Assembly (NCBI GenBank): GCA_963804645.1
Contig: CAWDRG010000008.1
Span: 1-64,000, forward strand
Length of the DNA stretch: 64,000 nt
Reading direction: 5' to 3'
Source of the DNA: an uncultured Bacillota bacterium
GTDB lineage: Bacteria > Sysuimicrobiota > Sysuimicrobiia > Sysuimicrobiales > Segetimicrobiaceae
In this document: piece by piece, positions 10,795-32,963 of the stretch
Layout: every line of letters begins with the position of its first letter
Position numbering within the stretch: position 1 is the first letter of the stretch
Program-made: the position numbers and the translations under genes
Notes under the pieces: generated by a model
The model's database searches: none
Seen by the model: only the letters and a program-made list of their open reading frames with translations
What the model was told of the DNA's origin: nothing

Positions 10795-11032
10795 CGCTCA
10801 CAAACCGCCCTGGCGCGCTTCCGGAATACGTCTCGACCGGCGGCGCGCCGCCGGCCACGTCGATGTGCCGCCGATTCCATTCGGGGTCGTCCAACTCCAT
10901 GCCCGGGCGCGCCGCCGCGCGGCACGACCCAGACCGGTGAGAGCCGACCGTTCGACTCGGCACACTATCGCGCGCCCCCCGAAACAGCCCAAAAAGCAGA
11001 ACGAAGTCAGAGCGATGCGTCCCGTCTCCGGC

Positions 11033-11110
11033 TTCGGCAGCCCCGCTGACCCAAGCATCTGGCCCGGTGGCTTTGCGTCCCTGGGTTACCCCAAGTTTGC
11101 CCTTATCGTG
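11033..11110 (-). ncRNA. c-di-GMP-I (GEMM) riboswitch upstream of the giant adhesin
   Basis: Minus strand reads AAGGGCAAACTTGGGGTAACCCAGGGACGCAAAGCCACCGGGCC...GGTCAGCGGGGCTGCCGAA, matching the GGCAAAC / GACGCAAAGCC / AGCGGG..GCCGA consensus. The position equivalent to Vc2 G20 is G (c-di-GMP type rather than cGAMP type). Confidence 0.92.
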
Positions 11111-16911: not shown

Positions 16912-19277
16912 CGGCGTCCCAACTCCACGATCGTCGCCCCGCTGCCGCCCTCGCCGTCTCCCCCGAGGCGGTAGGACGCCACCTCGGGATGATGGGCCAG
17001 GTGGTCGTGGACCGCGCGGCGCAGCGTGCCGGTACCCTTCCCGTGGATCACGGTCACCCGGGGCAGGCCAGCCAGGGTCGCGTCGTCCAGATATTTGTCG
17101 AGCTCCGCGAGCGCCTCCTCCGTCGTCATGCGCCGGAGATGGATCGACGACGGCACGCTGACCGTCCGATCGAATGTCGTCACCCCGCGCGGCGCGACCG
17201 CCGGGGCGGCCGGCGCGGCGCCAACCGGTCGCCGCAGGTCGTCGCGCGGCACCCGCACCTTGAGCGCGCCGAGCTGCACTTCCACGTCCCCACGCGCGTC
17301 AGGCGGTCCCTGGGCCGTGCCCCGCTGCCCGAGCGACGCGACGAGCACCTCGTCGCCCGCCCGCACGTCCTCCGGCACCTCCCCGGGCGCCTCCGTCCGC
17401 GTCTCGGCGGCGTAGGTGTCCGCGATCTCGCTGACCCGACGGAGGTACTCCCGCACGCGCGCGGTCGCGGCGGGGGTGGGCTTCGCGCGCAGGGCCCCGA
17501 GCAGCGCCTCGAGCTCCTGCCGCCCCCGGCGCTGCAGGGCGGCGAGCTCCGCCTGGGCCCGCTCGAGGGTGCGCCGGCGATCCTCCGCGATCCGCTGGAG
17601 CTCCTCCCGCGCGCGTGCCTGGGCGCGGGCCAGTTCCGCCCGCTCGCGCGCCAGCGCCGCGCGTTCGCCCGAGAGCTCGTCGCGCTCCTCTTCCACCCGC
17701 TCGATGACGCGCGTCAGGTCCGTCGCCTGCCGCGACAGATAGCCGCGCGCCCGCTCGATCACGTCGGACTCGAGCCCCAACCGCGCCGCGATGGCCAGCG
17801 CATTGCTGCGGCCGGGGGTGCCGATCAGCAGCCGATACGTCGGGCGCAGCGTCACCTCGTCGAACTCGACCGAGGCGTTCTCGACGCCGGGGTGGGTGAA
17901 CGCGAGCGATTTCAGCTCGTTGTAGTGGGTCGTGACGGCTGTGCACACGCCCCGGGCGTGGAGCGTCTCGATAATCGCGCGCGCGAGCGCCGCGCCCTCC
18001 GTCGGATCGGTGCCGGCGCCGACCTCGTCGAGCAGCACGAGCGCCCGCGCGGGACCGGGCGGCGTCTCCGTCAGTGAGGACAAAATCTCCACGATCGCGC
18101 GCAGGTGCGACGAGAACGTGGACAGGTTCTGCTCGATGCTCTGTTCGTCCCCGATGTCCGCGTAGACGCTCGGAAACACCGCGACCTGACTCTCCGGCGC
18201 CGCCGGGACGTGCAGGCCGCACTCCGCCATCAGCGTCAGGAGGCCGAGCGTCCGCAGCGCGACGGTCTTCCCGCCGGTGTTGGGCCCGGTGATCACGAGG
18301 GTGCGGAACGCGTCGCCGATCCGAATGTCGATCGGCACGACGATCCCGGTCAGGAGCGGGTGCCGGGCCGCGCGCAGGTCGGCGCGGCCGTCGGCGTTCA
18401 GGTGCGGGGTCGCCGCGCTAAGCTCCGCGCTGAGCTGCGCCTTCGCCGCGTCGAGGTCGAGGGCGGCGAGCACGCCGAGCGTGTCCGTGATGCGCTCCGC
18501 GGACTCGCCCACGAGCGCGCTCAGGGCCGTCAGGATCCGCGAGATCTCCTCCCGCTCGGCGGACATGAGCTCGCGCAGCCGGTTGCCGAGCGGCACCGCG
18601 GCGAGCGGCTCCATGAACACCGTCATGCCGCTCGACGACGAATCGTGCGCCACGCCGGGAAACTGCTCGCGAAACTCCGCGCGCACCGGCACCACGAACC
18701 GGTCGCCGCGGATCGTGATGAGCGGGTCCTGCAGCATGCGGGCGAGCGCCGGTGTCCGCAGCACCTGCTCCATCCGCTCGCGCAGCCGCGCTTCGCCGCT
18801 CCGCCGCTCCCGCCGGATCTTCGCGAGCTCGGGGCTCGCGGAATCCAGCACGATCCCTTCGTCGTTCAGGGCGCCGGCGATCTCGGCCTCGATCTCCGTG
18901 AACACCTCGATCCCCTCGGCGAGGTCCGCAAGCGCCGGCACGTCCTCGGCCCGCCCGACGACAAACCCCCGGAGCAGCCGGCCGGCCGCGAGCGAGTCGC
19001 GCACGTCCAGCAGCTCGCGCGGGGCGAGCGCCCCGCCGATGCCGGCGCGGTGGACGGGTGCGCGAATATCGCGCACGCCGCGGACCGGGAGCCCGCCGGC
19101 GTGCTCGAGAAGGAAGCGCGCCTCGGTGGTCTCCCGCTGCCGGCGCTCGACCTCTTCGAGATCGGCGGACGGCACGAGCGCGAGCGCTCGTTCGCGGCCG
19201 GCGACCGACGCGGTGCGCCCCGCGAGCCGGTCGAGCACGGTGGGGAGCCCCAGCACCCGGAGCGCCCGCTCGTTCAC
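16908..19277 (-). CDS. mutS2: Endonuclease MutS2
   Basis: ITGPNTGGKT, DIGDEQSIEQNLSTFSSH, LLDEVGAGTDP and a C-terminal Smr domain (IHGKGTG). Confidence 0.96.
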   Translation of the reverse strand: MNERALRVLGLPTVLDRLAGRTASVAGRERALALVPSADLEEVERRQRETTEARFLLEHAGGLPVRGVRDIRAPVHRAGIGGALAPRELLDVRDSLAAGRLLRGFVVGRAEDVPALADLAEGIEVFTEIEAEIAGALNDEGIVLDSASPELAKIRRERRSGEARLRERMEQVLRTPALARMLQDPLITIRGDRFVVPVRAEFREQFPGVAHDSSSSGMTVFMEPLAAVPLGNRLRELMSAEREEISRILTALSALVGESAERITDTLGVLAALDLDAAKAQLSAELSAATPHLNADGRADLRAARHPLLTGIVVPIDIRIGDAFRTLVITGPNTGGKTVALRTLGLLTLMAECGLHVPAAPESQVAVFPSVYADIGDEQSIEQNLSTFSSHLRAIVEILSSLTETPPGPARALVLLDEVGAGTDPTEGAALARAIIETLHARGVCTAVTTHYNELKSLAFTHPGVENASVEFDEVTLRPTYRLLIGTPGRSNALAIAARLGLESDVIERARGYLSRQATDLTRVIERVEEERDELSGERAALARERAELARAQARAREELQRIAEDRRRTLERAQAELAALQRRGRQELEALLGALRAKPTPAATARVREYLRRVSEIADTYAAETRTEAPGEVPEDVRAGDEVLVASLGQRGTAQGPPDARGDVEVQLGALKVRVPRDDLRRPVGAAPAAPAVAPRGVTTFDRTVSVPSSIHLRRMTTEEALAELDKYLDDATLAGLPRVTVIHGKGTGTLRRAVHDHLAHHPEVASYRLGGDGEGGSGATIVELGRR

Positions 19278-20194
19278 GGGACCGGCACGCCCGCGGTCAG
19301 AAGGTCCACGCACGCCGGCGCCACGTCCGTGATCGCGCGCAGCCGCGGCGCCAGGTCCCGGCGGCCGGCGCCGATGAGCAGTGCCGGCACGGGATTGAGC
19401 GTGTGCGCACGGGTGCCCCCGTCCTCCAGATTCCCGTGGTCGCTCGTGACGAGCACGAGCGTCTCGCGGAGATCGGCCGCGTCGAGAATTCCGCCGAGCA
19501 GCGCATCCAGACGCTCCACGACCTCGATCGGGTCGCCGGCGCGCCCGTGCCCCGCCAGGTCCGTTTGAAAGAACTCGAACAGCGTGAACGCGTGCGTCGA
19601 CGAGATCTCCGCGAGCCGCCGCCCCGCGTCCTTGGGCGTCACCTCCGGCACGTCGATGCCGTGCCGTCCGAGGCCGGTGTTGGTGAGGTCGTGGAAGACG
19701 GCCTGGCCGGCACGGAGGTCCTCCAGCCCGCGGATGCGCACGCCGGCCTGAAGCGCGTTGAGCGTGACCGCCGCGTGCCGGAGCCGGCGGGACGCCACCG
19801 CCTCGAAGTACGCGTCGGTGTACGCGTTGGCTAGCGCCGTCGACACCCCGGCCTCGCCCAATCGGACGAAGACGCCGTGCGAGGCGAGGAGCGTCCGGAG
19901 GGTCGGGGTCGGATAGGCCGTCACGTGCCGGCCGAGCAGCGCGGGCGCGTTCTCGCCGGTCAAGAGCGCGGTCTGGCCGGTCGCGCTCTGCGGCAGCCCG
20001 CTCACGCCGAGGCGCGCGTCGAGCGGGAGGAGCGTCGCCGCGTCGGTTCCCACCGGATCGCGGCCGGCCAGCGGCTGACCCAACAGCGCCCGGAGCGTGG
20101 GGGTGCGTCCCCGCACGAAAGGGTTCGTCGCGGGGTCCATGTCGCCCAACCCCACGCCGTCCACGAAGAGAAACAGCATCCGAACGGACCGCAC
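19274..20194 (-). CDS. Alkaline-phosphatase-superfamily metalloenzyme (phosphoglycerate/phosphopentomutase-like)
   Basis: FVDGVGLG, LPQSATGQT, TDLAGH, TSDHGN and HTLNPVP motifs. TAGAAT lies 6 nt before the GTG. Confidence 0.8.
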   Translation of the reverse strand: MRSVRMLFLFVDGVGLGDMDPATNPFVRGRTPTLRALLGQPLAGRDPVGTDAATLLPLDARLGVSGLPQSATGQTALLTGENAPALLGRHVTAYPTPTLRTLLASHGVFVRLGEAGVSTALANAYTDAYFEAVASRRLRHAAVTLNALQAGVRIRGLEDLRAGQAVFHDLTNTGLGRHGIDVPEVTPKDAGRRLAEISSTHAFTLFEFFQTDLAGHGRAGDPIEVVERLDALLGGILDAADLRETLVLVTSDHGNLEDGGTRAHTLNPVPALLIGAGRRDLAPRLRAITDVAPACVDLLTAGVPVP

Positions 20195-20274
20195 GATACC
20201 ATTCTACCTCGCGAGTGCGCCGGAGCGGCGCCGGGCGGCGCGGTTCCGTCAGGAGAGGCCGTCAAATGCCTGAC

Positions 20275-21123
20275 TCAACGGCTGCCGGTGCGCCCGCGCT
20301 GATGATCGGCGAGCGGCCACCCGACGAGCTGGCCGACCGCGCGAACCCACGAGGTTTGTTCGTGCCCGCGGGGTTCGTCTTGAAATCGGTAGTCGCGCTT
20401 CCTGATGAGTTCCCCGAGCTCACCGCGCAGTGCGGTCAATTTGGCATCCGCGATCTCGAGCAGCCGGCACGCCTGCGCTACCGTCGCGGCACCATCAAGC
20501 GTGATGAGCAGGTCGGGCAGGCAGAGAAACGACGATCGATTCATCGCGGCGACCATGTCGGCGTCATCGAGATGCCGCAGCAGGGTGGAGACGTAGCGGT
20601 CCTCGGCTTCCCGGGCGATCTGGCAGGCAGGACACGGGACCTGCGCCACGCGCCTCCGCCGCAGCAGTTCCACAAGCCACACACGTCGTGCCCCACCACG
20701 CGCCCCGCGGGTACCGTGCCGCTGTGGCCCTCCAACCCGCTGGACTTCCCGAATGGCCTCCTGGGCGAGCGCAACCTGATCCTGGTAAAGGATGGCCGCG
20801 GCGAGACTGTCGCCCAGACGTATCAACGCCCATGCATGCTCGCGGCAGAACCCTCTGGAAAGGTCGAGCGTGTGGCGTAATCCTGGGTCATTGACCTGCT
20901 CGTAGAGCGCGTCATCGAGATAGCGGTGGACCGCCTCGTTGCGAAGATAGCACAGCGGGCACTCCGGCTGCCCCAGGGCCGAGATCACGCGATGGTAGAG
21001 CATGTCGCGCTGGGCCAGCGCACGCGGCTGCGGTCCCAACCATCGTAAGCGCCGCACTCGTGCCATGCACACCACGTCCTCTCCCGGCGTCGCGTGAGCG
21101 CTCGTGCTGACCGAGTCGCCCAC
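20275..21123 (-). CDS. DUF6062-like protein with two CxxC...C Zn-binding-like motifs (start may be ATG 21066)
   Basis: ECPLC...YEQVNDP...GFCREH and CPAC...FLCLPD; C-terminal IRKRDYRF..EP.G.E..SW.RA. Confidence 0.7.
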   Translation of the reverse strand: MGDSVSTSAHATPGEDVVCMARVRRLRWLGPQPRALAQRDMLYHRVISALGQPECPLCYLRNEAVHRYLDDALYEQVNDPGLRHTLDLSRGFCREHAWALIRLGDSLAAAILYQDQVALAQEAIREVQRVGGPQRHGTRGARGGARRVWLVELLRRRRVAQVPCPACQIAREAEDRYVSTLLRHLDDADMVAAMNRSSFLCLPDLLITLDGAATVAQACRLLEIADAKLTALRGELGELIRKRDYRFQDEPRGHEQTSWVRAVGQLVGWPLADHQRGRTGSR

Positions 21124-21152
21124 CCCATCCGCAGGGCCGTCTCCCCATCCTT

Positions 21153-22628
21153 CTACGCCGGACCGCGGCGGGGCCGCGTGTCATCGGGCCCGGCCGATCG
21201 CGTCCCCCGCATCTGCTCCAGCGCCGCACGCGCTCCCTCGATCTCTTCACGCGAGAGTGCCGCCAGTCCGTATCGCGCGCGGCTGTACGTCGCGGTCAGC
21301 GTATCGACGGCGTCCGCCACACTCGGGTGCGCCGCGCGCACGACGCCGGCAAACTCCGCGGGGGTCTCGCTCGTGTGCCTGGAACTCCCACGCGCGGCGG
21401 CCAGGGTCAGGAATTCCGCGTAGCATCGGCGGATCGCACCGGCCGGTCCGGTGCCGTAGTCCGCCGGAGGGCTGACACGCCACCCTCGCCGGCGCCGTCG
21501 AAACCACGCGCGCCATGACGCGCGCACGTCGGCCCACGACCAGACGGACTCGCGGCTCTCGTCGGCGGAACGACGCCGCCCCGGCTGCCCAAACCGAAAT
21601 ACCGACCGGGCGAGCCACAGTGATCCGAGGATGAGCAGCAGTACCGCCACGCCCCACCGGAATGCCATGGCGGCCTCCGGCGGGAGTCCGGTCGTCTGAT
21701 GAGCCGCCGCCTGCTGGATCCAGGCCGGAGCCAGCAAGGGTGACAGCGACGGATGGATCCCGGGATGGACGAGCCGTTGGAAGATCCACAGGACCCCCGC
21801 GACGATCACGCCGAGGGGAATTGCGATGACGTAGAGGATGACGAGCAGCAGGACGTTCGCGGCTGATCCCATCGCGTCCCACAACGCTTTGACATCGAGC
21901 CGGAGCGCCACGCCTGCCAGGGTGGCGATCCCGAGCAGCACGATCACCGCACCGCCAAGCACCCCATACCAACCGCCAGACACCCGGGTGTGGCGCGCGG
22001 ATGCGCGAGTGAGCCGCTGCACGCTCTCGAGCCGTGCTAACGGAAGCGCAAGCAAGCCCGCGGCGAAAAACACGAGCAGGTAGGGAAAGGCGGCGGTCGC
22101 CACCGCCGCCAAGGCGGCGACCGAGCTGCCGCACGCCATCAGCACCGCGAAGATGCCGAGCGCGGCGAGCCCGAGATTGAACACCGCGTCCACGTCATAA
22201 TAATCCAGGGTCGTGCGCCCGACGACCAGCCCGCGCCGCCACACGAGCACGGCCAAGAGCCATGCGGGCGCCGCCGGCCGCGACCCGGTCAAGGCCGACG
22301 CCGCGGTGCGCCACAGCGGACCAGGAACTCCCCCCCGCACGTCGCCGTACTGCCAGGCCACGACGCCCGCCGCGACCAACACGCCAAGAGCGGCCAGCAC
22401 CGCCCCCGCCCGGCGTTCGCCGGTCCTCGCGAGGAACCGCCGCGTGAGGAGCTGTGAACCAGCGAGCAACCCGAGAATGACGACCGGGTGCAGGAGGCTC
22501 GTGCCCGGAGGAAGCCAGATCGTCCCGGCGAGCAGCGCATACGGGGTTATCCACGCAGCATCCATGATGGCCACAAGTGACGGCAGCATCCAGCCCGCGG
22601 ATGCCTCCGGCCGCTCCGCGGCATTCAT
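21153..22628 (-). CDS. Multi-TM membrane protein with C-terminal DUF4129 domain
   Basis: Many hydrophobic helices; C-terminal IRRCY...SETPAEF...LTATYSRARYG. Confidence 0.8.
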   Translation of the reverse strand: MNAAERPEASAGWMLPSLVAIMDAAWITPYALLAGTIWLPPGTSLLHPVVILGLLAGSQLLTRRFLARTGERRAGAVLAALGVLVAAGVVAWQYGDVRGGVPGPLWRTAASALTGSRPAAPAWLLAVLVWRRGLVVGRTTLDYYDVDAVFNLGLAALGIFAVLMACGSSVAALAAVATAAFPYLLVFFAAGLLALPLARLESVQRLTRASARHTRVSGGWYGVLGGAVIVLLGIATLAGVALRLDVKALWDAMGSAANVLLLVILYVIAIPLGVIVAGVLWIFQRLVHPGIHPSLSPLLAPAWIQQAAAHQTTGLPPEAAMAFRWGVAVLLLILGSLWLARSVFRFGQPGRRRSADESRESVWSWADVRASWRAWFRRRRRGWRVSPPADYGTGPAGAIRRCYAEFLTLAAARGSSRHTSETPAEFAGVVRAAHPSVADAVDTLTATYSRARYGLAALSREEIEGARAALEQMRGTRSAGPDDTRPRRGPA

Positions 22629-22687
22629 CGGGGCGTCGTGCCCGGTGATCGTCGGTCACGACGGCTCGGCATGATCACCTCCGGAGA

Positions 22688-23920
22688 TCACGCCAGCGCG
22701 ACGTGGGTGACGTCGCGCCATGCCTCCTCACCCCGCACGTGAAACACCGGCACGCGCCCTCCGTCGAATGCGGGCGCGGCGGTGCCCACCACGACCAGAC
22801 CCACCCCGCGTCCCTGCTGTCGGGTCGTCTCGAGCAGCGTGAGCACCTCCTGGTCGGGGAGCGCCGTGATGGCGATCGCCGTGGTGCCCCACGGGAGTTG
22901 CGGGACCTCCGCGGCCAGCATGTCCGCGAGCGCGATCGTGGCCACAGGAACGACCGTCGCCAGCGCTTCCAGCACCGCCTGCAACTGCCGGGGATGCTCG
23001 CTGGGCGGCAGGGCGATCGTGGCTGCGCCAGTCCCGCGAACTCGGGGCCCGTTGACGTAGAGGCCCACCGGAAGCTTCTGCTCAGCGGCCCACGCGGCGA
23101 CGGAGGCGGCCACGATGATCGCGAGTTCGACAATGAGCGGATCGTAGCCGGCCCACCACGCCAGTCCACGGAGCGTGTACATATCGAGGAACAGCGCCAC
23201 ACGCGCATGGGTCGTGGGCTCGACCATCTTGACTTGGAGGCTGCGGAGTCGCGCCGAGGCCTTCCAGTGGATGCGGCGCACGGAATCGCCGGCTTGATAC
23301 GCACGCACCCCCGCCTGATAGGTGGGATCGTCCCACAGCGTGTGGGGGGTCACCACGTCCCCAAACGGGCCGCGGGCAGCCAGCCCGAGGTGGTCAAGCG
23401 GGACGATCCGCGGATACACCACGAGCCGATCCACGTCGGACAGCTCCCGCTGCTGTGTCGACAATCCGAATAGATCGCCGCTCCGGAGCGTCGCCGGACC
23501 AAATTCGTACAGACCGCGGTGGGTGCACCTGAGACGATACCGGCGGCGAATGCGTTCGTACCAGCGGGGTGAGCACAGGTGCACGAGCGTGCGGCGGCGT
23601 GGCTTGTACGAGCTGGTCAGGTCCGCGTCGAGAAAGGTCAACGCGTCCGGCACGTCATCCTCGACCTCGAGCCACGGGAGCGGCAGAAGCTTGCGATTCA
23701 CCACCTCGAGGACGAGATCAATTTCTTCGTCAAAGAAGGCCCGCTGCTGGCTGAGCGTCCGTCGATAGGTGACCCCAGAGAAGCAGGACCGCTGCCAGAG
23801 CCAGGACACCAACACGATCAACAGCCCGATCACGGCGAACACAAACAGCAGCGCCTGGCGCAGGACGAGTCCAACGAGGCACAGGAGCACGAGCAGGCTG
23901 ACCCAGGCCTCGGAACTCAC
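22688..23920 (-). CDS. DUF58 domain protein (VWA-like MoxR partner) with N-terminal TM helices
   Basis: RGLYEFGP..LRSGDLFG, VRAYQAGDSVRRIHWKASAR. Confidence 0.9.
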   Translation of the reverse strand: MSSEAWVSLLVLLCLVGLVLRQALLFVFAVIGLLIVLVSWLWQRSCFSGVTYRRTLSQQRAFFDEEIDLVLEVVNRKLLPLPWLEVEDDVPDALTFLDADLTSSYKPRRRTLVHLCSPRWYERIRRRYRLRCTHRGLYEFGPATLRSGDLFGLSTQQRELSDVDRLVVYPRIVPLDHLGLAARGPFGDVVTPHTLWDDPTYQAGVRAYQAGDSVRRIHWKASARLRSLQVKMVEPTTHARVALFLDMYTLRGLAWWAGYDPLIVELAIIVAASVAAWAAEQKLPVGLYVNGPRVRGTGAATIALPPSEHPRQLQAVLEALATVVPVATIALADMLAAEVPQLPWGTTAIAITALPDQEVLTLLETTRQQGRGVGLVVVGTAAPAFDGGRVPVFHVRGEEAWRDVTHVALA

Positions 23921-24894
23921 GACCCCGCCCCGCCGGACGGCAGCGGGATTTCGGCCGGGACCGCCACGCCGGCAACAATCTCCGTCACGATCTCCTGAAG
24001 GGCGGTGCCGCGGAGCCGCGTCTGCCCGGTCGGCAGCAACCGGTGGCCCAGGACCGGCGCGGCGAGCGCCTTGACGTCGTCCGGCACCACGAAGGACCGG
24101 CTGCGAACGGCCGCAAGCGCTTGGGCGGTGCGCCGCAGCGCGAGCGTCGCCCGCGGGCTGGCGCCGAGCGCCAGGGCGGGATGCCTGCGCGTCGCTTGGA
24201 CGACGGCGACGATGTAATCGCGCACGACCGGCGCCACCGTCACCGAACGGATGGCTCGAGCGGCCGCCACCAGCGTGTCCAGATCCGAGCAGGGCTGGAG
24301 GTCGTCGAGGGGTGACGCGCGCTCAAATCGGTCGAGGATCGCGGCCTCGTCCGCAGCGTCGGGATACCCAAGCGACAGGCGCATCAGGAACCGGTCGAGC
24401 TGCGCCTCGGGCAGCGGAAACGTGCCGACGAGTTCGATCGGATTCTGGGTGGCCAGCACCAGAAACGGGGGAAGGAGCGCCCGCGTCTCTCCCTCGACCG
24501 TGACCTGCCGTTCCTCCATCGCTTCCAGGAGCGCCGACTGCGCGCGCGGGGTTGCCCGGTTGATCTCGTCCACCAACAGTACGTGGCTGAAGATCGGCCC
24601 GGGATAAAATTGGAACGCGTCTCCCTGGTCGCGGTAGACGGACACGCCCAAAATATCGGTCGGGAGCAGATCGGGTGTGCACTGAATTCGTCGGAACGTC
24701 CCGCCGATGCTGCGGGCGACCGCCTTCGCCAGCATCGTCTTCCCGATACCGGGCACGTCCTCCAGCAACACGTGCCCTTCGCTCAGCAACGCGACGAGTA
24801 GCAACTCAATCACGGCGTCCTTGCCGACGATCACGCGACTCACCTGCTGCCGGATCCGTTCCGCGATCGCCCCGACCTCTGCGGGCGTGTTCAC
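23917..24894 (-). CDS. MoxR-family AAA+ ATPase
   Basis: HVLLEDVPGIGKT, RIQCTPDLLPTD, DEINRATPRAQSALLE, FPLPEAQLDRF. SD-like GGGGGTG precedes the GTG. Confidence 0.95.
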   Translation of the reverse strand: MNTPAEVGAIAERIRQQVSRVIVGKDAVIELLLVALLSEGHVLLEDVPGIGKTMLAKAVARSIGGTFRRIQCTPDLLPTDILGVSVYRDQGDAFQFYPGPIFSHVLLVDEINRATPRAQSALLEAMEERQVTVEGETRALLPPFLVLATQNPIELVGTFPLPEAQLDRFLMRLSLGYPDAADEAAILDRFERASPLDDLQPCSDLDTLVAAARAIRSVTVAPVVRDYIVAVVQATRRHPALALGASPRATLALRRTAQALAAVRSRSFVVPDDVKALAAPVLGHRLLPTGQTRLRGTALQEIVTEIVAGVAVPAEIPLPSGGAGS

Positions 24895-24910
24895 GGTCGC
24901 CACCCCCAGG

Positions 24911-24950
24911 AACAAAAATGACCTCTACAGCTGCGTCCTGTAGAAGCCAT
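24911..24950 (-). terminator. Intrinsic terminator overlapping the 3' end of the leftward fluoride aptamer
   Basis: ATGGCTTCTACAG-gacgcag-CTGTAGAGGTCAT followed by TTTTGTT. Confidence 0.8.
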
Positions 24951-25008
24951 CGGCCACCGAGACCTTTCGGCTACCCGCTCGGAGGCGGTTTCGGCGAGCT
25001 TCATCGCC
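24940..25008 (-). ncRNA. Fluoride riboswitch (crcB motif) upstream of the moxR operon
   Basis: Minus strand reads GGCGATGAAGCTCGCCGAAACCGC...GGCCGATGGCTTCTAC. P1 is GGCGA/TCGCC; pseudoknot is GAAGC/GCTTC. Confidence 0.85.
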
Positions 25009-25047
25009 GTCACATTGCGGCTATTCAATTGTCTCCCTGTCTACCCG

Positions 25048-25150: not shown

Positions 25151-25179
25151 TTGTCGCTGCACCGCTCTCCGGGTATAAT
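25151..25179 (+). promoter_or_regulatory. sigma70-type promoter for the rightward riboswitch/Ehr operon
   Basis: TTGTCG-17 nt-TATAAT. Confidence 0.75.
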
Positions 25180-25214
25180 CGGCGTCGTACGACGATCGCC
25201 CCAGTTCGGCTCTT

Positions 25215-25264
25215 GGCGATGAGGCTCGCCATATAACCGCGTGATCCACGCTGATAGCCTCTGC
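25215..25264 (+). ncRNA. Fluoride riboswitch (crcB motif) upstream of the Ehr/hyf-like operon
   Basis: GGCGATGAGGCTCGCCATATAACCGCGTGATCCACGCTGATAGCCTCTGC. P1 is GGCGA/TCGCC; pseudoknot is GAGGCT/AGCCTC. Confidence 0.9.
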
Positions 25265-25297
25265 TGCCCGCTCCGGGTCCGCAGAGGCTTTTGTGTT
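25256..25297 (+). terminator. Intrinsic terminator overlapping the rightward fluoride aptamer
   Basis: AGCCTCTGC...GCAGAGGCT followed by TTTGTGTT. Confidence 0.8.
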
Positions 25298-25362: not shown

Positions 25363-26307
25363 GTGGACGACCGGATTCTTTTCAATATCATCCAAGCCCT
25401 GACCGTGCTGCTGTTATCGCCGCTGGTCAAAGGTCTCCTCGACCGTCTGAAAGAGCGCGTCCAGTCGAGGCGGGGCCCGACGATCTGGCAGCCGTACCGA
25501 GATCTGTGGAAGCTCTTCTCGAAGGACGAGGTCGTTTCGGACCAGAGCTCGTGGATCTTCCGAGCCGCTCCCTATATCGTGTTCACGATGCCGCTGTTTG
25601 TCACACTGCTCATCCCCGCGCTCACGGATTACCCGCTCTTTTTCGCGTTCATGTCGGACATGCTCGGGGCGGGGTTTCTGCTCGCACTGGGCGGGTTCTT
25701 CGCCGCCCTGGCGGCGGTGGACACCACCAACCCCTATGGGCCCATGGGCGCGAGCCGCACCCGGATGGTCGGATTTCTCGCCGAGCCGGTGTTCATGATC
25801 GTGTTCTTCACCATCTCGTTCGTGGCCGGCTCGACGATTCCGTACATCGTCCAGCAGCAGTGGGTCACCCCGCCGTCCAACTTCTTCGAGCCAGGCCACG
25901 TGCTGCTGATGATCGCCTTTTTGATGCTGCTGCTCGCAGAGACGGGACGGATTCCGGTCGACAGCGCGACGGGACATTTCGAACTCGCGATGATCGACGA
26001 GTCAAAAGGGCTCGAGTATTCGGGCCGCGGGGCCGCACTCATGAAGTGGGGCGGGGCGATGAAGTTCATGGTGCTCCAACTCGTCTTTCTCAACGTGCTC
26101 GTGACCCCGTGGGGCTTGGCCACACGGGCGTCGGTCGGCGCCGTGCTGCTCGCGATCCCGGTCGTCTTCCTGAAGATCGTCATCCTGCTGCTGGTGTTGA
26201 CGGCGATCGAGTCGTCCCTGGCCAAGCTCCGCCTGTTCCGCATTACCGAGTTTCTGGGCGCGGCATTTGTCATCGCGACGATCGCGATGATCACGCGCGT
26301 CTTCTAG
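25363..26307 (+). CDS. HyfC/HycD-like (NuoH family) membrane subunit
   Basis: QSRRGPTIWQPYRDLWKL, GPMGASR, AETGRIPVD and LEYSG motifs. SD GGAGG precedes the GTG. Confidence 0.9.
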   Translation: MDDRILFNIIQALTVLLLSPLVKGLLDRLKERVQSRRGPTIWQPYRDLWKLFSKDEVVSDQSSWIFRAAPYIVFTMPLFVTLLIPALTDYPLFFAFMSDMLGAGFLLALGGFFAALAAVDTTNPYGPMGASRTRMVGFLAEPVFMIVFFTISFVAGSTIPYIVQQQWVTPPSNFFEPGHVLLMIAFLMLLLAETGRIPVDSATGHFELAMIDESKGLEYSGRGAALMKWGGAMKFMVLQLVFLNVLVTPWGLATRASVGAVLLAIPVVFLKIVILLLVLTAIESSLAKLRLFRITEFLGAAFVIATIAMITRVF

Positions 26308-26322
26308 CCAAGGGGGCGACGT

Positions 26323-27000
26323 ATGGTGCAGTCGACCTGGATGCCCGCGCTCAATGATCTGGCGGGAGCGCTGTTTCTCCTCACCGCGGTCGGGCTCGTC
26401 GTGGTGCGGCAGGTGCAGGCGTGCCTCGCGGTATTCGTCCTCGAATCGGTCCTGCTCGGCGCCTCGGCGCTGATCTTGGGCACGGCGCTCGGGACACCGG
26501 ATCTCCTCGCCGTCGGCCTGATCACGATTGGGGTCAAAGCCATCCTGCTCCCGTGGCTGCTGCGCCGTACGGTCAGCGGTGAGATTTACACGCACCGCGA
26601 GCTCTCACAGCTGATCAACGTGCCCGCCTCCCTGCTGATCGCCCTCGGGCTCACGGTCGCGGCGTATTTGATCGCCGGGCCGCTCCTGTCACATCAGACA
26701 GAATTCGTCCGCGTGAATCTCCCGATCGGACTCGCGGGCCTGCTCCTGGGCGCGTTCACCTTGGTCACCCGCCGTGAAGCCGTCCCGCAGCTGATAGGGC
26801 TCCTGGCCATGGAGAACGGGGCATTCCTCGCGGGCGTGTCGATCGCCCCCGGCCTTCCGCTGATCGCCGAACTAGCGGCCTCGTTCGATGTCTTGGTGAT
26901 AGTCCTGGTCATGGGCATCCTCACCCAGGCGATCCACGAGCACGTCGGCACCACCGACATCGTGCACCTGGTGGAGCGCGGTGACGAGGGCCACGCATGA
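26323..27000 (+). CDS. HyfE-like membrane subunit
   Basis: Hydrophobic protein with KAILLPWLL and QLIGLLAMENG. Confidence 0.85.
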   Translation: MVQSTWMPALNDLAGALFLLTAVGLVVVRQVQACLAVFVLESVLLGASALILGTALGTPDLLAVGLITIGVKAILLPWLLRRTVSGEIYTHRELSQLINVPASLLIALGLTVAAYLIAGPLLSHQTEFVRVNLPIGLAGLLLGAFTLVTRREAVPQLIGLLAMENGAFLAGVSIAPGLPLIAELAASFDVLVIVLVMGILTQAIHEHVGTTDIVHLVERGDEGHA

Positions 27001-28442
27001 TGCTGCTCCTGATCCCCATCCTCCCGCTGCTGGCGGCGCTGTGCGCCCTGCTCCGGCCGCGGGGGCGCATCGCCGCGGCGGGGACGATCGCCGCCGCCGT
27101 GCTCGCGGCGGCGGGCGCCGCGCGCACGGCGCTGCTCGGCGCTGCCGGCACGACAATCGTGGCCGTGCCGGGGTGGATCGCCTGCGACGGTCTGAGCGCG
27201 CTCGTGCTGCTGCTCGTCGCCGCGGTCAACGTGAGCGCCGCGATCTTCTCGTGGGGCTACGTCCCCGCGAGACTCGCGCCGGCGGATCCGGCGGCGGAGC
27301 GGCGCTACTACATCAACTACAATCTGTTCGTCTCGTCGCTGCTCCTCGTGCCGCTGGTCCTCGAGCCCGCGCTGGTCTGGATCATGATCGAGCTGACCAC
27401 GCTCCTCTCCGTGTTCCTCGTCGGCTTTGATCGCACGCGGGGCGCGCTCGAGGCCGCCTGGAAGTACGTCGTCCTCACCCTCATGGGGGCGGCCATCGCC
27501 CTGCTGGGCGTGCTCCTCATGTATTGGGCGCTGTGGACCGCGGGGGGACGGGCGTTCACGTGGGATGGCCTCGTGGCCGCGGCCCCGCACATGCCGGCCG
27601 GCGTCATTCAGATGGCGTTTCTGCTGGTGCTGGTCGGCTTCGGGGCCAAGATCGGACTCGTGCCCCTCCACACATGGATCCCCGCGGCGTACAGTTACGC
27701 GCCCTCTCCCATCTGCGCGCTGCTGTCCGGCGCGGAGGCCACGGCGGTCTTGTATGTCGTGTTGCGCCTGGTCCCGGTGGCGGTCTCGGTGCCGGCCGTG
27801 CATGTCAGCGGCGCGCTCCTGGCCTTCGGCCTGCTGTCGGTGGCGGTCGCGGTGTTCCTGATCCTGCAGACGAGCGACTATAAGCGCCTGTTCGCCTACT
27901 CCACGATCGAGCACATGGGCATCATCCTGGTCGCCGCGGGCCTCGGGGGCGCGCTCGCGTCCTATGGGGCCGTCGCCCAGCTCCTCACGCACTCGGTCAC
28001 CAAGGCGTTCTGCTTCCTTGCCGTCGGGTCAGCGGTGATCGTCACGAACACCAGGGACACGGGCTCGATCCGGGGGCTCGTACGGACGTCTCCGGTCGCC
28101 GGGATCGCGCTGCTCCTGGGAGGCCTGGCCATCGCGGGAGCGCCTCCGTTCGCGGTCTTCCTCAGCGAGTTCGCGATTTTCCGCGCCGGGGTGTCCGAGG
28201 GGCACGCGGTCGTCGTCGCGCTCCTCGCCGCGTGTGTGATCGTCGGGTTTGTGGCCATTATGGTGCACGTGAACCGCATGGTGTTTGGATCTCCGACCGG
28301 CGCATCCGGGCGGCCACGCCTTCCCGCCGCCTGCGTCGTGGCGCTGGCCGCCGCCGTGGTCCCGGTGGTGGCGCTTGGCCTGTACGTGCCGCGTCCGGTG
28401 TTCGAGCTCCTGTCCGAAGCCGCGCGCTGGATCGGGAGGTGA
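26997..28442 (+). CDS. HyfF-like proton-translocating (Mrp/NuoN-like) subunit
   Basis: IELTTL, ALEAAWKY, GFGAKIGLVPLHTWIP, KRLFAYSTIEHMG. Confidence 0.9.
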   Translation: MMLLLIPILPLLAALCALLRPRGRIAAAGTIAAAVLAAAGAARTALLGAAGTTIVAVPGWIACDGLSALVLLLVAAVNVSAAIFSWGYVPARLAPADPAAERRYYINYNLFVSSLLLVPLVLEPALVWIMIELTTLLSVFLVGFDRTRGALEAAWKYVVLTLMGAAIALLGVLLMYWALWTAGGRAFTWDGLVAAAPHMPAGVIQMAFLLVLVGFGAKIGLVPLHTWIPAAYSYAPSPICALLSGAEATAVLYVVLRLVPVAVSVPAVHVSGALLAFGLLSVAVAVFLILQTSDYKRLFAYSTIEHMGIILVAAGLGGALASYGAVAQLLTHSVTKAFCFLAVGSAVIVTNTRDTGSIRGLVRTSPVAGIALLLGGLAIAGAPPFAVFLSEFAIFRAGVSEGHAVVVALLAACVIVGFVAIMVHVNRMVFGSPTGASGRPRLPAACVVALAAAVVPVVALGLYVPRPVFELLSEAARWIGR

Positions 28443-28449
28443 GAGAGAC

Positions 28450-30048
28450 GTGAGTCCTGCGCAGCCAGCCGAGATGAGGATCGCGGACGTGCGGTCCGCG
28501 GCCGCGTCGCGATGGATCGACGTGCGGGTCCGCGAGAACATGGCCCAGGACGTCGCGACGATCGAGTGCTCCCCCCAACGCCTGCGTCAGGTGTGCGCGT
28601 GGCTGTTCGCCGGTCTGGGCTGCGCGTTTGGAGGGCTGGTCGTCGAAGACACGCCCGCGGCCTGGGTGCTGCGGTATCTGTTCTACGGCCCCACGCCCGG
28701 GCAGATCCACGTGGTCACGGAGTGCGCCAAACCGTCGGAGACGGTACCCAGTATCAGCGTCGAGGTCCACGCCGCAGACTGGCATGAGCGAGAGGCGGAG
28801 GATCTCTTCGGCCTGGTGTTCGAGGGGCATCCGCGCCTGGGCGACTTCGTCCTCCACAACGACACGTGGCCGGAGCAGGTCGCCCCGATGCGCCGGGCCT
28901 TTGACCCGACCGCACGCCCGCCCTATCCGGCTCCTGACGACGCCTGGGCCCCGCTGCGACTCGTGGCCGAGCCCGGAGCCTTTCTCATGCCCGTCGGCCC
29001 GGTGTACTCCGGCATCACGGAAAGCGCTTTGTTTCTGCTCGAAACCGTCGGCGAGGACGTGATCCGCATCTTTCCCCGTCTCTTCTACAACTACCGAGCC
29101 ATTGAGAAGAGCGCCGAGGGCCGGACGGTGGACGATGCACTGCTGCTCGCGGAACGCTTTTCGGCCACCTCCGCGTTCGCGCACTCGCTCGCGTTCTGCC
29201 GCGCGGTCGAGACGATCTCGGAGGTTGTCGTCCCGCTCAGGGCGCAGGCGCTTCGCGTCCTGTTGGCGGAGCTCGAGCGGCTCCGTCACCATGCCGCCGC
29301 GATCGAAGCGATCTGCGACTCCACGGCCCTGGCCGTGGCGACCAGCCAGGCGGCGCTGCTGGAGGAAGACCTCCTGCGGCTGTCCGGGGCGCTCACCGGG
29401 CACCGGTATTTGTTCGGGCTGAACGTCCCGGGCGGTCTCGCGCGGGACGTGGCGACCGCGGCATGCCGCGAGGCCGCCGCGGCGGCGGCGGATGTCCTGC
29501 GGCGCCTCCGGGACCTCCGTCAGATGGTGCGATTCTCCACCAGCTTTCTCGACCGGATCGAAGGCGTGGGCGCGATCCCCGAAGTCGCGGCGCGGACCCA
29601 CGGGCTCGTGGGGCCCGTCGCCCGGGCCTCGGGCATCGTCCGGGATCTGCGCCGCGCGCAGCCGTACGCTGGGTACGAGCGACTCGCGTTCGAGGTGCCG
29701 CAGGAAACCGCCGGAGACGGATACGCCCGGCTCTTAGTGTTGTTCGCCGAAGCCGAACAATCCGCGGCCCTGATGCGCCAGAGTGCCGACCAACTCTCGG
29801 ACGGACCGGTCCGTGTGCCGGTGCGGACCGCATCGGGAGCGGCGTTTGGGTGGGCGGAGGCGCCGCGCGGAGCCACGTTCCATTGGGTCCGAATCGGCGA
29901 GGACGGACGGCTCGAACGCTATCGGGCCGTGACGCCCTCATTCATCAACTGGCACGGCCTGCATCTTGCGGCTGAGAACTTCGCGTTCCAAGACTTCCCG
30001 ATCATCCTGGCCACCCTCGGCCTGTCGGCCGCGGAGTGCGACCGCTAG
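28450..30048 (+). CDS. HyfG/HycE-like large subunit (NuoC+NuoD fusion) lacking NiFe-binding cysteines (Ehr type)
   Basis: ADWHEREAEDLFGLVFEGHP, GPVYSGITES and EAPRG motifs. The L1 site reads ERFSATSAFAH and the L2 site LGLSAAECDR, with no CxxC. Confidence 0.9.
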   Translation: MSPAQPAEMRIADVRSAAASRWIDVRVRENMAQDVATIECSPQRLRQVCAWLFAGLGCAFGGLVVEDTPAAWVLRYLFYGPTPGQIHVVTECAKPSETVPSISVEVHAADWHEREAEDLFGLVFEGHPRLGDFVLHNDTWPEQVAPMRRAFDPTARPPYPAPDDAWAPLRLVAEPGAFLMPVGPVYSGITESALFLLETVGEDVIRIFPRLFYNYRAIEKSAEGRTVDDALLLAERFSATSAFAHSLAFCRAVETISEVVVPLRAQALRVLLAELERLRHHAAAIEAICDSTALAVATSQAALLEEDLLRLSGALTGHRYLFGLNVPGGLARDVATAACREAAAAAADVLRRLRDLRQMVRFSTSFLDRIEGVGAIPEVAARTHGLVGPVARASGIVRDLRRAQPYAGYERLAFEVPQETAGDGYARLLVLFAEAEQSAALMRQSADQLSDGPVRVPVRTASGAAFGWAEAPRGATFHWVRIGEDGRLERYRAVTPSFINWHGLHLAAENFAFQDFPIILATLGLSAAECDR

Positions 30049-30057
30049 GAGGCGCGC

Positions 30058-30822
30058 ATGACCACCTGGGTGTGGAAGGGCCTGTCGACGCCGGTCCGCA
30101 CCACGCGATATCCGGCCGCGCCGGACGACACGCCGGGGACGTCGCCCGGCCGGCCGGCCGGCGGCGCGGTCAGCCCGACCACCGGCGCGGACTTGATCGC
30201 CCGCTGCCCGACCGGAGCCCTCACCGCGTCGGACGGGCACATCGTCGTGGATCCGGCACGCTGCGTGCACTGCTACCGCTGCGTCCGAGGCGTCGCCCAC
30301 CCAATCGGGTGGGAGTCGGGTTATGAATGGGCCCGGGCGACGTCCGGGGATGGACAGCCGAGCGCCCCGCTCGGTCGAGCGTTTCATCGATCCGCGCATA
30401 TCCTGGTCGTTGACGCCGGGGACTGCGGAGCGTGCCTGAGTGAGGTCAAACAGCTGAACAATCCCTACTACAACATGCACCGGCTCGGATTCTTCATCAC
30501 GCCGACGCCCCGGAACGCGGACATCCTGCTCGTGGTCGGGCCTGGGACCGCGAACATGCGGTGGGCGCTGCGGAAAGCGTACGACGCGATGCCGACGCCC
30601 AAGCGGGTGATCGCGGTCGGCACGTGCGCATCGAGCGGCGGCGTCTTCACCCCGAGTTTCGCGTCGGGGACGGGCATCCACGAGGTCCTGCCGGTGGACG
30701 TCATCGTGCCGGGCGCTCCTCCCCCGCCGCTCGCGATTCTGCACGGCTTGCTCGTGGCCACGGGACGGGCCGCGCCGGCCGAGCGGCCCACCGCGGCGGC
30801 CAACGGGACGGTCGCCCGATGA
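30058..30822 (+). CDS. HyfI/HycG-like (NuoB) small subunit with a fused N-terminal 4Fe-4S ferredoxin segment
   Basis: CPTGAL...CVHCYRC; GDCGACLSE, PRNADILLV, GTCA, VPGAPP. Confidence 0.88.
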   Translation: MTTWVWKGLSTPVRTTRYPAAPDDTPGTSPGRPAGGAVSPTTGADLIARCPTGALTASDGHIVVDPARCVHCYRCVRGVAHPIGWESGYEWARATSGDGQPSAPLGRAFHRSAHILVVDAGDCGACLSEVKQLNNPYYNMHRLGFFITPTPRNADILLVVGPGTANMRWALRKAYDAMPTPKRVIAVGTCASSGGVFTPSFASGTGIHEVLPVDVIVPGAPPPPLAILHGLLVATGRAAPAERPTAAANGTVAR

Positions 30823-32963
30823 CGCACGCCGAACCCTGGCTCCTCTGCTGCCTCGGCCTCTGCGCGGCCGGCATCGTCGCCAGCGCGGTGACCCCAGAAC
30901 GGCTCGTGCCCACGGTCATCGCGTGGATCGGTTCGGCGGCCTCGGTGCTCCTCATGGCGCTCGGCGGGTCGGTCGTCGTGGCCGGACACCCGATGACCCT
31001 CTCGCTGTGGTCGATCACTCCCACCGACGCGCTCGTCCTCAGTCTCGACCGCTTGGGAGGGGTGTTTGCGGCCGCCGCCGGCCTCGTCTGCCTGCCCGTG
31101 TCCATCTTCTCGGCAGGATACCTTGGGCGGTATCTGGGTCGCTACAGCCTGAGATCGTTCGGCATCCTGTACCACGCGCTGCTCGCCGCCATCGTCCTCG
31201 TGCTGGTCGCCGGCGACGTCCTGTCGTTCCTGCTGGCATGGGAAGCGATGGCGATCTCCAGTTACCTGCTGGTGAACTACGAGCACGAAGACCGGGAGCA
31301 CACGCGTGCCGGGTACCTGATGCTGGTCATGGGGGAAGCCGGCACCGTCGTGGCGATGCTGGGCCTGCTCGTCCTCGCGAACGGTGCCGGCGGCCTGTCG
31401 TTCGGCGCGCTCCGGAGCGCCGGCGCCGCGCTTGGAGGCGCCGGACGCTGGGCGGTGTTTCTGCTCACCTTCTTCGGGTTCGGCGTGAAGGCCGGCCTGC
31501 TGCCGAGCAGTTCATGGCTGCCCCGGGCGCATCCGGCCGCGCCGGCTAACGTGTCGGCGATCCTGTCGGGCGTCATCCTGAACCTCGGGCTCTACGGCAT
31601 CGTCCGCGTCAATCTCGACCTGCTGCCGGTCGATCGGGTCGGTCCCGGGGTGATCGTGTTGATCATCGGCAGCCTCTCGGCGCTCGTCGGCATTCTCTAC
31701 GCCACGACGCAGAACGATCTCAAGACCATGCTCGCGCACAGCTCCATCGAAAACATCGGCATCGTGGCCACCGGGCTCGGCGCGGGCCTGATCTTCGGCG
31801 CGTCGGGATATCCGGTGCTGGCGGGGATGGCCTACATCACCGCGTTCTACCACATGGTCAATCACGCGGCCTACAAAGGGCTCTTGTTCCTGGGCGCGGG
31901 CGCGGTCGACGTCGCGGCCGGAGCCCGGGACATGGACCGGCTCGGCGGGCTGATCCGCGGAATGCCGTGGACCGCGTTGTGCTTTCTCATCGGGGCGCTG
32001 TCGATCGCCGCGATGCCGCCGTTCAACGGGTTTGTCAGCGAGTGGCTGACGCTGCAGATGCTGCTGCGCAGCGTGGAACTCCAGGCGACGGTGGTGAAGA
32101 TCGTCTTCGCGCTGTGCGGGGCGGCGCTCGCCCTAACCTCCGCCCTGGCCGTCACGTGCTTCGTCAAGACGTTCGCGATGAGCTTCCTCGGCATGGCCCG
32201 GTCCGCCGGCGCCGAATCGGCGCGCGAGACCACCCCGGCCGCCCTCGCGGCGATGGGCCTGCTCGCGGTCGCGTGCCTGACGCTCGGGGTGATTCCCACC
32301 GCCGTCATTCCGGCCCTGGACCGCGTCGTCACCCCACTCGTCCACGCGAGCGCCGTGGACGCGCTGGTCCCGCCGTTCTTCCACCCCACCGTGCCCGGGC
32401 ACGCGCTGCCGCCCGCGTTCGTCGCGGACTTCCACGACCTCGGGGCCCAAGTCGGGCGACACGTCATCCCGGGGCCGGGCCTCGTCGTGATGCACCGCGG
32501 CGGGTTGAGCAACCCCGTGGTCTTCGCGATGTCGACGAGCTATCTGCTCCCCGTGCTGGCGCTCCTCCTGACCCTCCTCTACGCCGTCGTCCGGCTGGCG
32601 ACACGGGCCCGCGCGGTCGTCCGCCGCACGCGCTGGGACGGCGGACTGCCGCGGCTGGACGCGAGCATGACGTACACGGCGACCGGATTTTCCAACCCGG
32701 TGCGGGTCGTGTTCAACGCCGTGTTCCATCCGTCCGTCGATGACGACACGACGGAGGTGGTCGCGGAACACTTTCGCACCGCCGTCCGTCGGTCCCGGAG
32801 CGAAGTCTATCTGGCCGACCGGCTGCTCACGGAGCCCCTCGCCCGCTGGTCGCGCCGGTACGCGCGCGCCCTCGCGGGCATGCATCACGGCCGTCTCAAC
32901 GCGTACGCGGGGTACGTGCTGCTGACGCTCCTTGCCTGTCTGATCGCCGGCCGGTACCTGTGA
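30819..32963 (+). CDS. HyfB/HycC-like (NuoL/MrpA family) membrane subunit
   Basis: FLLAWEAM, GFGVKAG..WLPRAHPAAP, LAHSSIENIG, PPFNGFVSEW. ATGA overlap with the upstream gene. Confidence 0.9.
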   Translation: MTHAEPWLLCCLGLCAAGIVASAVTPERLVPTVIAWIGSAASVLLMALGGSVVVAGHPMTLSLWSITPTDALVLSLDRLGGVFAAAAGLVCLPVSIFSAGYLGRYLGRYSLRSFGILYHALLAAIVLVLVAGDVLSFLLAWEAMAISSYLLVNYEHEDREHTRAGYLMLVMGEAGTVVAMLGLLVLANGAGGLSFGALRSAGAALGGAGRWAVFLLTFFGFGVKAGLLPSSSWLPRAHPAAPANVSAILSGVILNLGLYGIVRVNLDLLPVDRVGPGVIVLIIGSLSALVGILYATTQNDLKTMLAHSSIENIGIVATGLGAGLIFGASGYPVLAGMAYITAFYHMVNHAAYKGLLFLGAGAVDVAAGARDMDRLGGLIRGMPWTALCFLIGALSIAAMPPFNGFVSEWLTLQMLLRSVELQATVVKIVFALCGAALALTSALAVTCFVKTFAMSFLGMARSAGAESARETTPAALAAMGLLAVACLTLGVIPTAVIPALDRVVTPLVHASAVDALVPPFFHPTVPGHALPPAFVADFHDLGAQVGRHVIPGPGLVVMHRGGLSNPVVFAMSTSYLLPVLALLLTLLYAVVRLATRARAVVRRTRWDGGLPRLDASMTYTATGFSNPVRVVFNAVFHPSVDDDTTEVVAEHFRTAVRRSRSEVYLADRLLTEPLARWSRRYARALAGMHHGRLNAYAGYVLLTLLACLIAGRYL

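What the first reader, a model, noticed from the sequence alone, without database searches (positions are those of the whole stretch)
25363..32963. Fluoride-regulated 'hydrogenase-4' that cannot be a hydrogenase: no NiFe ligands and a small subunit missing its fourth Cys
Seen: the large subunit reads ERFSATSAFAH and LGLSAAECDR where group 4 hydrogenases have RxCGxC and DPCxxC. The small subunit has CGAC and GTCA but PGAPP in place of PGCPP, and is fused to a one-cluster ferredoxin remnant. No hyp maturation or formate dehydrogenase genes are in the window, and the hyfB-like gene comes last. Established: NiFe-less relatives are called Ehr complexes and have no defined function, and 'formate hydrogenlyase' annotations have been noted behind fluoride riboswitches. 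Inference: these may be a distinct Ehr clade using Mrp-like subunits for anion/proton handling, with a 3-Cys Fe-S site open to a ligand.
Basis: partly seen in the sequence, partly recalled or inferred. Interest (0 to 1): 0.75.

Follow-up and report, generated by a model that had tools for sequence, protein, structure and literature searches.

The report
Fluoride-switched, rewired nickel-free ion pump
A fluoride-sensing RNA sits in front of six genes for a relative of membrane hydrogenases and respiratory complex I that lacks all four nickel-iron ligands and has clade-wide changes in its membrane ion path, so the 'formate hydrogenlyase' long listed among fluoride-response genes is likely an ion-moving machine that helps cells cope with fluoride, not a hydrogenase.

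Summary
Observation confirmed. The operon is a NiFe-less Ehr complex behind a fluoride riboswitch that has its own promoter and terminator. It lies in a well-supported hyfB-last clade (100/100), sister to ordinary Ehr. A switch precedes hyfC in 58 of 61 and 45 of 45 loci of two sub-branches, against 0 of 44 ordinary Ehr and 0 of 16 hydrogenase loci.

The missing fourth Cys is real but does not mark the clade. The position drifts among eight residues, and the sister sub-branch keeps all four Cys.

The clade's marks are in the membrane arm. HyfB has Asn for the TM8 Lys (131 of 131), and HyfC lacks two E-channel charges (126 of 126), while HyfF stays canonical.

The complex usually co-occurs with Fluc (34 of 50 genomes), so it does not replace it in general. 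This genome has no Fluc or CLC.

Best reading: a likely proton pump that offsets HF entry (0.4). Main rival: a third fluoride-exporter family (0.27). The scan reported the switch-Ehr link before on seven other genomes; I found it in no paper.

The parts
25151..25179 (+). sigma-70-like promoter (TTGTCG-17-TATAAT) ahead of the riboswitch
   Evidence: 3 promoter-like sites found against 0.1 expected in shuffles
25206..25270 (+). fluoride riboswitch aptamer (RF01734) leading the operon
   Evidence: 36.5 bits, E 1.8e-6
25256..25293 (+). predicted terminator hairpin with U tail, overlapping the aptamer's 3' strand (predicted ON switch)
   Evidence: z -5.0, 0 of 200 shuffles fold as well; not picked up by the simple scan
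25363..26307 (+). HyfC/HycD/NuoH-like membrane anchor, 8 TM. Lacks HycD Arg108 (G111) and Glu130 (T133); keeps E141, E193, E207; has clade-wide T88, Y125, P160, H179, N244
   Evidence: Foldseek top hit 7z0s_D, TM 0.80
26323..27000 (+). HyfE-like membrane subunit
   Evidence: NF008556 below cut-off, E 4e-20
26997..28442 (+). HyfF-like antiporter subunit with canonical charged axis (E132, K218, H225, H332, K336, E391); private D230A in this genome
28450..30048 (+). large subunit (NuoC+NuoD/HycE-like) without NiFe cysteines or C-terminal extension; start uncertain (GTG 28450 or ATG 28474); residue numbers in this report count from 28486
30058..30822 (+). small subunit fused to a one-cluster ferredoxin: C50/C69/C72/C75, then D122, C123, C126, C190 and A220 in place of the fourth Cys
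   Evidence: Foldseek top hit 7z0s_G
30819..32963 (+). HyfB/HycC-like antiporter subunit, last in the operon. TM8 Lys replaced by Asn255, Glu173 gained; E142, K224, H349, K353, E408 kept
24934..25017 (-). second, divergent fluoride riboswitch with promoter (25076-25048) and terminator (24951-24917), leading moxR-DUF58-DUF4129-DUF6062

Best explanation
The six genes encode a nickel-free, complex-I-like membrane complex behind a fluoride riboswitch, and it likely works as a fluoride-induced proton pump that would remove the acid load of entering HF and keep up the membrane potential on which fluoride efflux depends. Shown: riboswitch, promoter-like site and overlapping hairpin; loss of the NiFe ligands; one clade; near-perfect switch linkage; a canonical HyfF axis; a rewired HyfB-HyfC path. 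Inferred: fluoride turns transcription on; a soluble ferredoxin feeds the fused [4Fe-4S] cluster and then the N2-like cluster, with Asp122 possibly standing in for the lost Cys; an unknown acceptor at the emptied active-site pocket drives translocation through HyfF and the altered HyfB-HyfC channel. The acceptor and the ion are not shown.
For: Switch linkage: 58 of 61 and 45 of 45 loci, against 0 of 44 and 0 of 16 control loci. Seven of the eight Fe-S cysteines are kept in 80-83 of 83 close relatives, and all four small-subunit Cys in 62 of 64 of the sister branch, so the wire is under selection in most members. HyfF keeps its charged axis, and HyfB keeps the TM5 Glu, TM7 Lys, TM11 Lys and TM12 Glu. 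Fluc is present in 34 of 50 carrier genomes, and within the fetched locus in 9 of 80 and 22 of 80 clade loci against 0 of 44 ordinary Ehr loci: a partner pattern. In this bacterial family, genomes without the complex put a cation/proton antiporter (6 genomes) or a membrane H+-pyrophosphatase (1) behind the same switch. PMC11139923 (passages) describes HF entry lowering the proton-motive force and cytoplasmic pH.
Against: No electron acceptor is evident. The quinone-site Tyr and His of complex I align with A227 and E179 (their roles recalled), and the pocket is not conserved between sub-branches. The M. branderi member has lost all four small-subunit Cys yet keeps the switch, so redox turnover cannot be essential in every member. 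The TM8 Lys and two E-channel charges are lost, which could break a proton wire, although K239A did not lower H2 production in E. coli FHL (PMC9474812 section 13). This genome has no Fluc or CLC to partner with. The antiporter/Ehr exclusion is small: P 0.27 among 23 genomes, 0.049 among the 13 with switches, and kin are not independent; 3 of 27 other carrier genomes hold a full copy of that antiporter.
Confidence: 0.4

Rival explanations
1. The complex is itself a fluoride exporter, a third family beside Fluc and CLC-F. Protons would enter through canonical HyfF and drive F- out through the rewired HyfB-HyfC path, with the soluble arm as scaffold or redox gate.
For: Clade-wide loss of Lys/Arg/Glu and gain of Asn/His/Thr/Tyr fall mainly in HyfC and HyfB, the two subunits packed together in FHL. 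T88, P160, H179 and N244 lie on the predicted outer face of HyfC (helix limits; topology recalled from NuoH). HyfC is the best-conserved subunit, at 74% median identity against 53-60% for the others. This 96.8% complete genome has no Fluc and no CLC, and its only two switches are here. 16 of 50 carrier genomes lack Fluc, and none of 37 aligned CLC loci shows the GREGT/V signature.
Against: No anti-correlation with Fluc: 34 of 50 carriers have it, and 4 of 5 carriers in an Acidobacteriota sample against 74 of 151 overall. The window's family lacks Fluc in 0 of 23 whether or not the complex is present. No member of the superfamily is known to move anions (recalled).
Confidence: 0.27
2. It is an Mrp-like secondary Na+(K+)/H+ antiporter for pH homeostasis, and the hydrogenase-derived arm is vestigial.
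For: Apparent exchange with a switch-led PF00999 antiporter within the family, 4 against 6 genomes with no overlap. Variable loss of small-subunit Cys. A second hyfB-like gene follows the first in about 18 of 80 loci. HyfB Glu173 and Asn255 could form a cation site (inference).
Against: No homologues of the small Mrp subunits among the six genes. Most Fe-S ligands stay nearly invariant. The exclusion is statistically weak.
Confidence: 0.18
3. It is a redox enzyme that bypasses fluoride-blocked metabolism or acts on a fluorinated substrate, with ion movement secondary.
For: Enolase, pyrophosphatase and metallophosphoesterase recur in the same islands (enolase in 11 of 80 and 9 of 80 loci, 0 of 44 controls). 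HycE Glu193, Arg478 and Asp529 equivalents appear largely retained (E179, R461, D503; mapping inferred).
Against: No dehydrogenase or donor module recurred among neighbours. The strongest clade-specific conservation is in the membrane, not at the pocket.
Confidence: 0.1
4. It is a working formate hydrogenlyase or hydrogenase-4, as annotated.
For: Annotation-level similarity: best PDB hit is HycE, E 1.8e-61. The genome has a likely selenocysteine molybdo-enzyme elsewhere (identity inferred).
Against: All four NiFe Cys positions are lost; there is no C-terminal extension, protease, HyfA or HyfD; no HypD or HypF was found.
Confidence: 0.02

Closest known systems
Ehr (energy-converting hydrogenase-related) complexes, as described in PMC6349859, PMC10284858 and PMC4378227 (passages read)
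   Same: No NiFe motifs, six subunits with two antiporter-like ones, no assigned function; nested among group-4f-like hydrogenases and joined with ordinary Ehr at 98/98.
   Different: Separate sister clade (100/100); hyfB last instead of ahead of hyfC; fluoride switch; HyfB TM8 Asn; HyfC without Arg108 and Glu130; tail not NKSFNLSYxGxDL.
E. coli formate hydrogenlyase (Hyc, PDB 7Z0S/7Z0T) and hydrogenase-4 (Hyf)
   Same: Folds and sequences of the large, small and anchor subunits match HycE, HycG and HycD best.
   Different: No NiFe site, extension, protease, HycB/HyfA or HyfD; one-cluster ferredoxin fused to the small subunit; altered E-channel.
Respiratory complex I and P. furiosus MBH/MBS
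   Same: NuoB/C/D/H/I-like core with antiporter-like subunits; the large subunit ends in a NuoD-like ExDR.
   Different: No NADH module, no tandem Cys, quinone-site Tyr/His not kept, two antiporter subunits.
Fluoride-riboswitch regulon (crcB motif: Fluc, CLC-F, Na+/H+ antiporters, enolase, 'formate hydrogen lyase'; PMC2864571, PMC11139923)
   Same: Same riboswitch and the same neighbours (Fluc, enolase, MutS-domain proteins, pyrophosphatase).
   Different: The passages read treat the target as a formate-oxidising FHL; the sequences here exclude hydrogenase chemistry.

Membership tests
Group 4 [NiFe]-hydrogenase (Hyc/Hyf) | N-terminal RxCGxC and C-terminal DPCxxC nickel ligands | tested here: not met
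Group 4 [NiFe]-hydrogenase (Hyc/Hyf) | C-terminal extension, maturation protease and hyp genes | tested here: not met
   protein ends at ECDR; no HypD or HypF genome-wide; hypA/B only on C22
Group 4 [NiFe]-hydrogenase (Hyc/Hyf) | H2 turnover | not testable with these tools
   needs protein
Ehr complex | group-4-like large subunit without NiFe ligands | tested here: met
Ehr complex | six-gene set with NuoH-like, HyfE-like and two antiporter-like subunits | tested here: met
Ehr complex | groups with other NiFe-less complexes next to group 4f | tested here: met
   98/98 in the careful tree; references are my own loci and hits, not a curated Ehr set
Ordinary (hyfB-ahead) Ehr branch | hyfB before hyfC, NKSFNLSY-type tail, HyfB TM8 Lys, HyfC Arg108/Glu130 | tested here: not met
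Complex I / Fpo-like quinone reductase | tandem Cys at N2 and quinone-site His/Tyr | tested here: not met
   CxxC motif; Tyr aligns to A227, His to E179 (residue roles recalled)
Mrp antiporter | MrpA-G set | tested here: not met
   only two MrpA/D-like genes
Mrp antiporter | Na+/H+ antiport | not testable with these tools
   needs transport assay
Fluc / CLC-F exporters | PF02537 or PF00654 homology | tested here: not met
Fluoride riboswitch RF01734 | score above the Rfam cut-off, 5' of genes, overlapping terminator | tested here: met
Fluoride riboswitch RF01734 | F- binding and induction | not testable with these tools
   no RNA holder listed

The most novel reading that the evidence does not exclude
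A complex-I-superfamily machine has been converted into an active fluoride exporter: the third family of microbial fluoride transporters and the first anion-moving member of the superfamily, with the rewired HyfB-HyfC channel as the F- path.
Probability: 0.27. Interest if true: 0.92.

Novelty: new variant of a known kind. Interest (0 to 1): 0.7.

Why it matters
Ehr complexes are widespread and have no assigned function, and 'formate hydrogenlyase' has stood unexplained in the fluoride regulon since 2010; a 2024 review still reads it as a formate-oxidising enzyme. One Ehr clade now has an inducer, a phenotype to test, a cultured soil host (Caballeronia sp. SBC1, L095) and a short list of residues to mutate. 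If it pumps protons, it adds the energy side of fluoride resistance, relevant to organofluorine-degrading microbes. If it exports fluoride, it changes what complex-I antiporter modules are known to carry.

Tried and rejected
Independent second loss of the NiFe site: suggested by FastTree, rejected because IQ-TREE LG+C20 joins both NiFe-less branches at 98/98; no AU test was run.

General replacement of Fluc: rejected. PGAPP as clade marker or as an error: rejected.

Asp122/Cys220 covariation as proof of a ligand swap: Ala122 goes with Cys in 20 of 20 ungapped rows, and Asp122 with a non-Cys in 53 of 61. But position 122 changes once on the tree, giving one independent pair, so it is a lead only.

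A contig-number estimate of Fluc adjacency (19 of 34) rests on an assumed numbering and was replaced by the direct count.

My first RNA model missed the GGCAT-type switches; Rfam and model R2 recovered them. R2 was built from clade switches, so Rfam itself was run on 16 ordinary Ehr loci and 1 hydrogenase locus: no fluoride hit.

Expression: no RNA holder listed. The models give no coordinates, so cluster geometry could not be measured. Baker 2012 (PMC4140402) was not held. No complex prediction was run.
Full report
Observation. Rfam finds a fluoride riboswitch at 25206-25270 and a divergent one at 24934-25017; these are the genome's only two hits. Each has a promoter-like site and a hairpin with a U tail overlapping the aptamer's 3' strand, the layout PMC2864571 describes for ON switches (passages). 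The Ala220 codon is matched by contigs of two public DNA runs. The genome (96.8% complete) gave no Fluc, CLC, HypD or HypF hit. It does have two NuoD-type loci, and on C22 a hydrogenase with intact Cys motifs beside hypA and hypB (my reading of it as group 3b is recalled).

The clade. A 65-sequence IQ-TREE run puts the hyfB-last complexes in one clade (100/100), the other NiFe-less complexes in a sister clade (98/93), the two together at 98/98, inside group-4f-like hydrogenases. Eight of the 23 clade rows are proteins without genomic context. An earlier FastTree result implying a separate NiFe loss did not survive.

Switch linkage. Groups were set by gene order and large-subunit sequence, not by the switch. 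Among close loci with at least 400 nt upstream of hyfC, 55 of 61 have a same-strand hit within 600 nt by my model. Rfam adds three, giving 58 of 61; the other three have one 1.4-2.4 kb upstream. The second sub-branch gives 45 of 45. All 13 further clade loci have an upstream hit, one of them weak and two duplicating genomes already counted. Controls: 0 of 44 ordinary Ehr loci, apart from one partial 18.5-bit match, and 0 of 16 hydrogenase loci, nearly all with at least 700 nt of upstream room. Rfam agreed on the 17 controls it scanned. Many loci are near kin, so these are not independent events.

Soluble arm. All four NiFe positions are lost. In 83 close small subunits (including a few duplicates) C123, C126 and C190 are invariant and the ferredoxin Cys are kept in 80-82. 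Position 220 takes eight residues, including Phe, which looks like release from constraint and not like a selected open site. Cys220 is lost only where Asp (once Asn) precedes Cys123. That suggests Asp ligation, but rests on one evolutionary event. The second sub-branch keeps four Cys (62 of 64 by pattern). M. branderi has none, as does one ordinary Ehr, L097. The one-cluster fusion also occurs outside the clade.

Membrane arm. Mapped on E. coli FHL (PMC9474812 section 13 read whole), HyfB Asn255 is HycC Lys239 on TMH8. It is Asn in 76 of 76, 52 of 52 and 3 of 3 clade sequences, and Lys in 40 of 43 ordinary Ehr (Asn in 3) and 8 of 8 hydrogenases. Glu173 is gained in 127 of 131 (Lys in the three actinobacterial rows). 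A Cys in the ND3-like tail becomes Gly or Ser (subsample). In HyfC, the E-channel residues Arg108 and Glu130 are absent from 126 of 126 clade sequences but present in 40 and 43 of 44 ordinary Ehr and in 8 of 8 hydrogenases; T88, Y125, P160, H179 and N244 are invariant. HyfF keeps its canonical axis. So the changes concentrate in the two subunits that form the continuous channel in FHL. Caveat: K239A had no effect on H2 production in FHL.

Partners. Fluc occurs in 34 of 50 carrier genomes (50 of the 80 loci). The Acidobacteriota background is 74 of 151, and 4 of 5 carriers in that sample have it (the tally includes one unpublished genome, G813). It lies inside the fetched locus in 9 of 80 and 22 of 80 clade loci and 0 of 44 controls. 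No CLC-F signature appeared in 37 aligned CLC loci from the Fluc-negative carriers and the family; 6 fragments did not align. The window's family has Fluc in 0 of 23 genomes, switches in 13, this complex in 4 and a switch-led PF00999 antiporter in 6 others, without overlap. Two more have what look like truncated antiporter genes behind the switch, and one has an H+-pyrophosphatase. The numbers are too small to prove exclusion.

Mechanism. HF enters as a weak acid and F- leaves through a channel, so the cycle carries protons in (PMC11139923 passages). A proton pump under the same switch would close that loop, and conserved Fe-S ligands plus an intact HyfF fit this best (0.4). The missing acceptor, the cluster-less members and the rewired channel keep direct F- export (0.27) and Mrp-like antiport (0.18) alive. 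That it is an ion-moving fluoride-stress machine of some kind I put near 0.85.

Literature. Passages read: PMC6349859, PMC10284858 and PMC4378227 (Ehr lacks NiFe motifs, function unknown or suspected only); PMC2864571, PMC7266159 and PMC11139923 (the switch and its 'formate hydrogen lyase' targets); PMC13645896 (no mention of Ehr or fluoride); PMC9474812. Searches found no paper joining Ehr and fluoride. The library lacks most subscription papers; Baker 2012 was not held; Marreiros 2013 is recalled only; no supplements were read, and those of Weinberg 2010 and Baker 2012 may list these genes. Seven earlier reports of this scan reached the switch-Ehr link on other genomes. A word search for the membrane-arm changes returned none, which does not show that they were unnoticed.

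Verdict. A real feature and a new variant of a known kind.

Noticed in passing
window 19274-25017 (-): The divergent fluoride switch leads moxR AAA, DUF58, DUF4129, DUF6062 and a metalloenzyme gene; a switch also precedes moxR in G001, G003, G006 and G011.
   Followed up: partly
L276-L283 (family genomes G002, G003, G013, G015, G017, G019): In a family with no Fluc and no CLC-F signature, the fluoride switch leads a ~400-aa PF00999 antiporter; it is itself a candidate fluoride exporter.
   Followed up: partly
L292 (G006): Fluoride switch ahead of a membrane H+-pyrophosphatase gene.
   Followed up: no
window 27684-27686: HyfF has Ala230 where all 188 other sequences in the alignment have Asp; contigs of the four DNA runs cover the place and no difference was listed there.
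   Followed up: partly
L021, L024, L046 and others: A second hyfB-like gene follows the first in about 18 of 80 close loci; its residues were not examined.
   Followed up: no
L033:265-2121 and relatives: A dynamin-like GTPase recurs beside the operon (20 of 80 and 7 of 80 loci, 0 of 44 controls), as do MutS_V-only ATPases, an MFS transporter and a metallophosphoesterase.
   Followed up: partly
window 11032-11110 (-) and 3313-10794 (-): A c-di-GMP-I-GGC riboswitch leads a 2493-aa protein with 21 passenger-associated repeats.
   Followed up: no
G000:C22:5754-12821: A soluble hydrogenase operon with intact NiFe motifs, hypA and hypB, in a 96.8% complete genome where HypD and HypF were not found.
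   Followed up: partly
L096:9318-10112 and L097:9263-10135: Small subunits with all four cluster Cys replaced, one inside and one outside the fluoride clade.
   Followed up: partly
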